DNA of 37,965 bases from Bigelowiella natans CCMP2755 (taxonomy: Eukaryota; Protista; Cercozoa). The notes under the pieces are model-generated. The model worked only from the letters and a program-made list of their open reading frames with translations, did not search any database and was not told the DNA's origin. Both the position numbers and the translations under genes were made by a program. Location: assembly GCA_000320545.1 (NCBI GenBank), contig ADNK01000420.1:1-37965 (forward strand). Direction: 5' to 3'. Positions 6,480 through 7,560 of this stretch are shown piece by piece (the stretch's first letter is position 1; each line of letters starts with the position of its first letter).

Positions 6480-7560
6480 AAGTTGGTACAGATGCTGACA
6501 CAGACGGTGCCACGATCAGACGGCACACGCAAGACTACCTAGCTACCCACGCTGCGCTGCGATGCGTGCATTGCAGGCATGCGGGCCTGTCACGTCTAGA
6601 TGTGCTAGCGTGTTCATTTGACAGCCGCACGTGTGCATCAGCTGACAAGATCTCCAGCGGACAAGTCACAGCAAGGACGCAAGGACAAGCTTTTGAGGAC
6701 GGCACAATCTCTGAGATGGGCATGCGTGAGCGAACAAAAGGGAGGCAAGTCCCATGTCGAATTCTCTTTGTTTCATTTCTGCTTCACTGGTTCGCTTGCA
6801 ATGAATTTGAGAGACTCCCCTGCACCACACCGCCATGCCAGCATGGCAAATTTCATTTCATTTCCATTTTTCAAAGAACTGCGTCATTCCCTCCTCAAAG
6901 TGGAAGTGGAAGTGGACGTGGACGTGGACGTGGACGTTCCCCAGTGCCAGCTAGCCAGCTCGACAACAGTTTGCCTGAGTGCATCTGTCACCAGTGTCCT
7001 CTTCACAGCCTGCTCGCTCGGGGATTCGGAGAGTCTTTTGTGAGTCCACAGAAGTGAGACTTTGAGGATGGTCATTCTCTCCAATTTCTGCAAGATCAGG
7101 GATGCACTCACGTGCTGCAGCTCTTCTTCAGGTGGGTCTGCGCTCTTTGGTGTTGGGGCGTTGACGAAGTTGATTGAATTGCAGGTCGAAAACGCCTGCA
7201 GTCACACGCAAACGGTGGTGCAGCGCAGGCGTAGAAGAAGAAGAACTGTTTCAAGCAAGGTTGGACGAATTCTGCATCATTGAATGCGCTGATTGCCGCA
7301 CACTCTCAAAAGCGCCCGCTTCAATGCAGACTGATTCGCACGAGTTCGAATGTTGTTTGTGGAATGCGGTCGAGATCGAATTTTTCCGGGAATTGTTGTG
7401 GTGACAAAGAGATGTCGCACGATGTAAATCCTCTGTGCATTTAGCCGAACAACAACAAGTGCTCCAGCATCGTCCTCGTCCTCGTGACAATGATCTCGTC
7501 GGCAAATGTCCTGCAATTTGATCGTGTTTCAATGCATGTTTTTGTGATCTTGGTGATAAA
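6480..7560. other. TpA-depleted intergenic island, possibly a decayed gene or repeat remnant
   Basis: Only two TA dinucleotides (6952, 7232) in 6608-7424, while CG is abundant. Broken Tyr-poor, Cys/His-rich reading frames on both strands. Contains (GTGGAA)2(GTGGAC)4 at 6900-6935. Confidence 0.7.

What the first reader, a model, noticed from the sequence alone, without database searches (positions are those of the whole stretch)
6608..7424. Near-total TpA erasure in an 817-bp intergenic island: a 'reverse-RIP' mutational signature
Seen: only two TA dinucleotides (6952 in CTAG, 7232 in GTAG) where tens are expected at this base composition and flanking DNA is TA-rich. CpG is not depleted, so this is not ordinary 5mC decay. 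TG/CA are abundant and residual ORFs are Tyr-poor and Cys/His-rich. Inference: a localised process converts TA to TG/CA (A->G or T->C), opposite in direction to fungal RIP (CA->TA). Possible causes are deamination of a modified adenine or error-prone repair targeted to silent or repeat DNA.
Basis: partly seen in the sequence, partly recalled or inferred. Interest (0 to 1): 0.72.

Follow-up and report, generated by a model that had tools for sequence, protein, structure and literature searches.

The report
TA-erased island in chlorarachniophyte alga
An 817-base stretch between two genes of a marine alga, likely Bigelowiella natans, holds 2 TA steps where about 38 are expected; it is likely an old scar, on a likely decayed repeat, of the TA-to-TG/CA hypermutation already reported in that species.

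Summary
In detail: 2 TpA in 6608-7424 against about 38 expected from this window's own background (P about 1e-9 after scanning), with CpG normal. The DNA is from a chlorarachniophyte, likely Bigelowiella natans. The island lies between an RsmE-like gene and a membrane/PDZ gene. No protein, RNA, viral or bacterial match was found, and its ORFs are a by-product of stop-codon loss. A 38-68-nt core (7233-7305) recurs at 4 other loci whose flanks are also TA-poor, and a wild seawater contig carries the same TA-poor state. I read it as an old, nearly saturated target on a decayed low-copy repeat. Direction of change was not shown at this locus: composition fits TA->TG/CA but fits TA->any base as well, and TG/CA excess also occurs in TA-normal spacers. 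What it adds is small: a roughly 1-kb target with no recognisable viral sequence, wedged between two host genes.

The parts
6608..7424 (.). Core of the TpA-erased island (2 TA; TA/(TA+TG+CA) = 2 of 151)
   Evidence: background 0.30
7425..7660 (.). Right margin, still TA-poor (4 of 42); best-fit edge at 7554, support 7397-7660; contains a CT-rich tract at 7600-7647
6343..6607 (.). Left margin: resembles the window's GC-step- and CTAG-rich stretches, TA o/e 0.57 (10 of 63); island edge at 6548-6643
7233..7305 (.). Short dispersed-repeat core next to a GAA tract; 4 other genomic contigs match 38-68 nt of it at 87-89% in each of 3 DNA runs
   Evidence: tables 7, 8
6900..6937 (.). Hexamer tandem repeat (GTGGAC-type, 6.3 copies) inside the core
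7319..7586 (.). Stretch covered by a 268-nt contig of a seawater metatranscriptome with 2 differences; same TA-poor state
   Evidence: run X18, depth 2
5996..6342 (+). Last exon and 3' UTR of an RsmE-like rRNA methyltransferase gene (stop at 6128-6130; RNA contig ends at 6342; 90-nt GT..AG intron just upstream)
   Evidence: Pfam PF04452 E=5.3e-7; contig and joint in X15
7823..8661 (+). First exon of a predicted membrane protein gene with a PDZ-like later exon (ATG 7922); marks the right end of the spacer
   Evidence: RNA contigs in X15, X17, X20; PF13180 E=1.3e-4, below its curated cut-off, for 8881-9018

Best explanation
The island is likely the nearly saturated scar of the TpA-specific A:T->G:C hypermutation reported in Bigelowiella natans, likely left on the decayed relic of a low-copy dispersed repeat that sits between two host genes. 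Shown here: the TA loss, normal CpG, limits of about 0.9-1.3 kb inside a 1.48-kb spacer, a short core shared with 4 other TA-poor loci, and the same state in a wild contig. Taken from the preprint: in this species targeted DNA turns TpA into TpG or CpA at about 1000 times the normal rate. Inferred: the element was once recognised as foreign or repeated, likely silenced, and the A of each TpA on either strand was likely deaminated to inosine (candidate ADAT2/ADAT3-like enzyme) and fixed as G, until about 95% of targets were gone; at the published rate this would take roughly 3e5 generations of active targeting (assuming 50% AT in the viral insert). Because TA->TG/CA removes TAA and TAG in all six frames, long spurious Tyr-free ORFs follow.
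For: TA o/e 0.04, far below the preprint's cut-off of 0.43 and its actively mutating viral region (0.45). Host: Nup85 at 26697-28874 has one non-self hit, Amorphochlora amoebiformis at 33%; window GC 43% fits B. natans (45%), not A. amoebiformis (27%), the only two chlorarachniophyte nuclear genomes named in PMC12730881. Simulated TA->TG/CA on background stretches reproduces the island's dinucleotide profile and GC rise (sum z2 9.1 over 9 classes; GC 0.50 against 0.51), while TA->CG, TA->TC/GA and TA->TT/AA fit worse (20-22). Four other single-copy-depth contigs share the 7233-7305 core in 3 of 3 DNA runs laid, and their seven 30-nt unaligned flanks hold 2 TA against 10.1 expected from composition-matched background (P=0.0008; hand count). 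A wild contig shares the state, so it is neither an assembly error nor a culture artefact. The preprint's low-TpA coding set is enriched for DDE and reverse-transcriptase domains.
Against: No TA->TG/CA change was seen directly: 0 of the 4 listed differences to the paralogous cores and 0 of the 1 listed difference to the wild contig lie at a TA step. TA->any base fits the composition slightly better than TA->TG/CA (7.3 against 9.1). CA+TG o/e is 1.46 in the core, under the preprint's 1.52 cut-off, and TA-normal stretches reach 1.25-1.57. No viral, transposon or bacterial sequence was recognised, and no terminal repeats or target-site duplication, so 'repeat relic' rests on a 38-68-nt core. The island is not shown to be silent: a 589-nt unspliced contig at depth 6.1 covers 6763-7351 in a run guessed to be RNA. 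The species name is inferred.
Confidence: 0.7

Rival explanations
1. The element arrived already TA-poor: its master copy lost TpA elsewhere (by the same process, or in a donor) and then spread, so this locus itself was never targeted.
For: All seen family members are TA-poor, and none of the 4 listed differences between copies is at a TA-derived step. The sharp left edge (6548-6643) fits an insertion junction as well as a targeting boundary.
Against: No donor or intact master was found. Copies are too diverged (87-89% in the best core, little alignable outside) for a recent burst. Only 4 of the 8 differences in the longest match were listed, so the test is weak either way.
Confidence: 0.15
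2. The island is a functional non-coding element (promoter region of the PDZ gene or an RNA) kept free of TpA/UpA by selection, and the 70-nt core is a conserved motif.
For: It ends 160-270 nt before the first exon at 7823; low-level contigs cover it and two paralogous cores lie in contigs of a run guessed to be RNA, one at depth 40.7; a wild contig is 99% identical.
Against: The stretch upstream of Nup85 has TA o/e 0.62 and the 162 nt next to the PDZ gene 0.79; no other 817-nt stretch has fewer than 29 TA. No Rfam match (best E 0.76); the core folds worse than shuffles (z +2.0, +1.1). Wild identity is no higher than in the neighbouring exon.
Confidence: 0.07
3. A DNA modification (for example adenine methylation) marks the island and drives the TA loss chemically or through error-prone repair, without a deaminase acting on plain adenine.
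For: AT o/e is also lowered (0.84 against 1.08, z -2.0). The enzyme in the preprint is only a candidate.
Against: AT falls only modestly and lies within 1.4 sd of the TA->TG/CA simulation; eukaryotic 6mA is at ApT, not TpA (recalled). CpG is intact, so 5mC decay plays no part. No modification data were available.
Confidence: 0.05
4. The island is an intact or recently dead protein-coding exon with strong TA avoidance.
For: ORFs of 191, 144, 135 and 105 codons overlap it. In one minus-strand frame 3 of the 4 listed paralog differences fall on third codon positions (my reading).
Against: 23 of 88 (26%) TA-mutated background segments give an ORF of 191 codons or more. No hit in Pfam, PHROGs, the 5.8-billion-protein search (2 frames), the 1.84-billion HMMER search (1 frame) or the ESM Atlas (1 ORF). 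Host coding exons keep TA (Nup85 95 of 395). No splice joint in the island.
Confidence: 0.03

Closest known systems
TpA-specific hypermutation of integrated NCLDV and virophage DNA in Bigelowiella natans (Mettrop et al., bioRxiv 10.64898/2026.01.13.699255; read: parts 1-4 of 5 of the text, abstract to methods; figures, tables and supplements not seen)
   Same: Likely the same species; same signature (TpA loss with CpA/TpG gain, GC rise); local, with host genes next door unaffected; the paper also reports TpA-poor 1-kb windows and 124 clusters genome-wide.
   Different: About 1 kb rather than 25-186 kb; TA o/e 0.04 rather than 0.45; no viral gene recognisable; too short for the paper's cluster definition (3 consecutive 1-kb windows); no ongoing mutation shown.
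Repeat-induced point mutation (RIP) of filamentous fungi (recalled; also as described in the preprint's discussion)
   Same: Local, dinucleotide-specific transition mutagenesis that likely disables repeated DNA.
   Different: RIP is C->T, raises TpA and lowers GC; here TpA is lost and GC rises.
ADAR/ADAT adenosine deamination and APOBEC hypermutation of viral genomes (as discussed in the preprint)
   Same: A->G outcome with a preference for U/T before the A.
   Different: ADAR edits RNA and APOBEC edits C; heritable A->G in nuclear DNA has no demonstrated enzyme in this alga.
TpA-erased transposon blocks in diatom genomes
   Same: Near-total TpA loss in sharply bordered non-genic blocks.
   Different: Several of those notes report CpG loss as well; here CpG is at the window's background.

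Membership tests
B. natans TpA-hypermutated sequence (Mettrop et al.) | Host is Bigelowiella natans | tested here: inconclusive
   Chlorarachniophyte by Nup85; GC and intron size fit B. natans, not A. amoebiformis; no call names the species.
B. natans TpA-hypermutated sequence (Mettrop et al.) | Rho(TpA) at most 0.43 in a 1-kb window | tested here: met
   0.10-0.15 in the six best 1-kb windows; 0.39 and 0.32 in fixed bins 6001-7000 and 7001-8000; no other of the 37 bins is under 0.57.
B. natans TpA-hypermutated sequence (Mettrop et al.) | Rho(CpA+TpG) at least 1.52 | tested here: inconclusive
   1.52 in bin 6001-7000, 1.37-1.51 in the six best windows, 1.46 in the core; my combined formula may differ from the paper's.
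B. natans TpA-hypermutated sequence (Mettrop et al.) | Cluster of 3 or more consecutive qualifying 1-kb windows | tested here: not met
   The depleted zone is at most about 1.3 kb; it cannot be one of the 124 clusters by that definition.
B. natans TpA-hypermutated sequence (Mettrop et al.) | De novo or polarised TA->TG/CA changes | tested here: inconclusive
   14 DNA runs hold all sampled words, but only about 0.03 hits per line are expected and they may be the window's source; 0 of 5 listed differences in paralogs and the wild contig are at TA.
B. natans TpA-hypermutated sequence (Mettrop et al.) | Viral (NCLDV, virophage, transpoviron) origin | tested here: inconclusive
   No hit in IMG/VR by one pattern and two ORFs, nor in PHROGs or phage records; heavy mutation would hide a relic, and the B. 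natans viral inserts were not available for comparison.
Transposable element | Dispersed copies | tested here: met
   4 other contigs match a 38-68-nt core at 87-89% in 3 of 3 DNA runs; the filter hides some contigs, so the number is a floor.
Transposable element | Transposase/RT remnant, terminal repeats or target-site duplication | tested here: not met
   No Pfam hit in six read-through frames; only short chance-level repeats in 6200-7900.
Fungal RIP | C->T with TpA excess and GC loss | tested here: not met
   TpA o/e 0.04, GC 51% against 43%.
5mC-driven CpG decay | CpG depletion | tested here: not met
   CpG o/e 0.82-0.83 against background 0.88 +/- 0.13.
ADAT2/3-type DNA adenosine deamination | Enzyme shown to act on this DNA | not testable with these tools
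   Candidate only in the preprint.

The most novel reading that the evidence does not exclude
The alga's TpA mutator is aimed by sequence homology, not by large silent viral domains: it finds kilobase-sized, low-copy, non-viral repeat relics wedged between working genes, erases about 95% of their TpA with an edge of about 100 nt and without CpG loss, and treats all members of a family alike. Such small saturated islands would map the targeting signal far more finely than the 25-186-kb viral inserts.
Probability: 0.3. Interest if true: 0.55.

Novelty: new member of a known kind. Interest (0 to 1): 0.3.

Why it matters
The process itself, heritable A->G hypermutation of nuclear DNA at TpA, is unusual and its enzyme and targeting are open questions, but it is already in print for what is likely this species. 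This locus is one more likely target. Its use is as a small, sharply bounded, nearly finished case between two host genes: if its family can be aligned, it would show whether targeting follows homology, how far it spreads towards genes, and whether non-viral repeats are hit.

Tried and rejected
CTAG preference among surviving TA: 4 of 13 in 6390-7660 against 3.7% of background TA (P=0.001), rejected because three other stretches of the window carry 9-14 CTAG per kb (32 of 213 TA) and 3 of the 4 lie in the similar left margin. Hairpin at 7110-7255 (z -2.57, 4 of 200 shuffles): chosen after seeing the inverted repeat; 5 of 65 background windows reach -2.5 and none of 16 evenly spaced island windows goes below -1.3. 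A codon-periodicity model trained on two host exons was too weak to name a frame. No whole genome is held, so no genome-wide scan or full paralog alignment was possible. A degenerate core pattern that allowed TA in place of TG/CA found 0 matches in viral, metagenome and prokaryote contigs. A search for the locus through the PDZ-gene exon found 207 pattern hits, none confirmed. Two island ORFs in viral contigs: 29 and 10 pattern hits, none confirmed. No Rfam match above chance, no tRNA. Parts of the island without RNA cover are not taken as evidence of silence; in the raw-read run X21 the downstream gene was as thinly covered as the island. The window's own contig was not listed in any of the 3 DNA runs laid, so missing copies prove nothing. 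A second ESM Atlas query (ORF 6887-7201) did not complete.

Full report
1. Observation. The 817 bases 6608-7424 contain TA twice, at 6952 (CTAG) and 7232 (GTAG); 48.9 are expected from base composition, or 37.6 with the window's background TA o/e of 0.77. Poisson P(<=2) is 3.5e-14, 1.3e-9 after allowing for every start in the window. No other 817-nt stretch has fewer than 29 TA. CpG o/e is 0.83 against 0.86 for the window, CA 1.61, TG 1.33, GC 51% against 43%. A two-changepoint fit on TA/(TA+TG+CA) places the island at 6611-7554, with a fairly tight left edge (6548-6643) and a looser right edge (7397-7660); the ratio is 2 of 151 in the core, 10 of 63 and 4 of 42 in the margins, 95 of 395 in the Nup85 gene.

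2. Setting. The window is intron- and microsatellite-rich eukaryotic DNA. Its Nup85 gene (Pfam E=6e-76) has one non-self hit among 6414 candidates, Amorphochlora amoebiformis at 33% identity. PMC12730881 (passages read) names B. natans (45% GC, mean intron 184 nt) and A. amoebiformis (27% GC, 546 nt) as the two chlorarachniophyte nuclear genomes, so the window is most likely B. natans; this is inference. Contigs of a run guessed to be RNA end at 6342 for the upstream gene and start at 7823 for the downstream one. The upstream last exon is RsmE-like (PF04452, E=5.3e-7); the downstream gene has predicted hydrophobic stretches and a PDZ-like exon (PF13180, E=1.3e-4, under the cut-off). The island therefore fills most of a 1.48-kb spacer.

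3. What the island is not. No family was found for 14 ORFs (Pfam, PHROGs), six read-through frames, two ORFs in the 5.8-billion-protein set (longer proteins only), one 254-residue frame in 1.84 billion representatives or the 191-aa ORF in the ESM Atlas. Long ORFs are expected once TAA and TAG vanish: 23 of 88 background segments put through simulated TA->TG/CA give 191 codons or more. Rfam, tRNA, phage, IMG/VR, metagenome and prokaryote searches were empty. No terminal repeats stand out. A heavily mutated relic would escape most of these searches, so origin stays open.

4. Related copies. In each of three DNA runs laid (X6, X9, X14; 3 of 14 holders), four contigs at about equal depth match 38-68 nt within 7233-7305 at 87-89% and then run on unlike. 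The window's own contig was filtered out, so this is a floor and says nothing on whole-island copy number. The seven distinct 30-nt unaligned flanks hold 2 TA by my hand count, against 10.1 in composition-matched background 30-mers (P=0.0008); the flanks are partly purine tracts and partly still homologous, so this is suggestive, not strong. The four listed differences in the cores (7264, 7267, 7268, 7270) are not at TA-derived steps; the other differences were not listed. A 268-nt contig from a seawater metatranscriptome (X18, depth 2) matches 7319-7586 with 2 differences, one listed (7370 T>C, not a TA step); the TA at 7425 and 7442 are kept. The TA-poor state is thus shared with a wild population and is old. 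A 589-nt unspliced contig at depth 6.1 covers 6763-7351 in X15, and two paralogous cores are in that run too; X15 is only guessed to be RNA.

5. Which change removed the TA? Simulating saturation on background stretches, TA->TG/CA matches the island's other nine dinucleotide classes (sum z2 9.1) and its GC (0.50 against 0.51). TA->CG, TA->TC/GA and TA->TT/AA fit worse (22.4, 20.6, 20.2), but TA->any base fits as well (7.3). Three TA-normal stretches (11300-12020, 29200-30100, 33600-34900) have CA/TG o/e of 1.57, 1.38 and 1.25, so TG/CA excess alone is weak evidence. The direction comes from the literature, not from this locus.

6. What is known. Mettrop et al. (bioRxiv 10.64898/2026.01.13.699255; I read parts 1-4 of 5, abstract to methods, and searched the text; figures, tables and supplements were not visible) report 231 of 302 de novo mutations in two viral inserts of B. 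natans, 230 of them A->G or T->C and all of these on TpA, at about 6e-7 per site per generation; 324 low-TpA coding sequences enriched for DDE and reverse-transcriptase domains; 124 clusters of three or more TpA-poor, CpA+TpG-rich 1-kb windows; and an ADAT2/ADAT3-like candidate without functional test. The island passes their TpA cut-off easily, sits at the edge of their CpA+TpG cut-off, and is too short to be a cluster. Whether their supplements list it I could not see. 10.1101/2025.03.17.643675 (passages) reports one H3K9me3/H3K27me3 state on transposons and repressed genes in B. natans, a plausible targeting platform. Searches returned no paper, one search gave this preprint as the only listed paper with 'TpA depletion', and searches gave listings only, none read. 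Earlier AI notes of this scan describe the same signature in diatom genomes, often with CpG loss (unchecked); none exists for this genome.

7. Mechanism. Most likely (0.7): a small repeat inserted or decayed here, was recognised and likely silenced, and the A of TpA on either strand was likely deaminated and fixed as G until about 95% of targets were gone, roughly 3e5 generations of active targeting at the published rate (with an assumed 50% AT). Shown: depletion, limits, paralogous core, wild sharing. From the preprint: process and direction. Inferred: that this locus was the target, that it is a transposon relic, the silencing, the enzyme. The main rival (0.15) is that the element arrived already erased; a selected TA-free regulatory element (0.07), a modification-driven route (0.05) and a coding exon (0.03) follow.

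8. Verdict. A real and extreme feature, correctly read by the first stage, but likely one more instance of a process already described in this species. New member of a known kind; interest 0.3. The boldest open reading, homology-guided targeting of kilobase non-viral repeats beside working genes, has probability about 0.3 and would merit 0.55.

Noticed in passing
window 11300-12020, 29200-30100, 33600-34900 (and 6500-6610): Stretches with a shared style: GpC o/e 1.7-1.8, 9-14 CTAG per kb (window 2.2), repeated GCATGC and GCTAGC palindromes, TA normal. The first lies just behind the end of the PDZ gene; they may be a gene-end or boundary signature of this genome.
   Followed up: partly
window 7233-7305: One paralogous locus of the short core lies in a 700-nt contig at depth 40.7 of a run guessed to be RNA; another has a pyrimidine tract and AG on the minus strand right at the edge of the match, like a splice acceptor.
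   Followed up: partly
window 26697-28874: Nup85 is encoded by a single 725-codon open frame in a genome whose other genes here are cut by many short introns.
   Followed up: no
window 19896-20849 (minus strand): Exons of an ATP-sulfurylase gene (PF01747, E=3.3e-9 and 1.3e-4), with long GTA/TAG microsatellites in the introns.
   Followed up: no
window 7831-8661: Marine metatranscriptome contigs (X17, X20) match the PDZ-gene exon at 97-100%, so close wild relatives are sampled in public data.
   Followed up: partly
window 6078-6111 and 7278-7299: Two short strings (9 and 12 nt) of the RsmE-like last exon recur in swapped order in the island's repeat core; seen by eye, probably chance.
   Followed up: no
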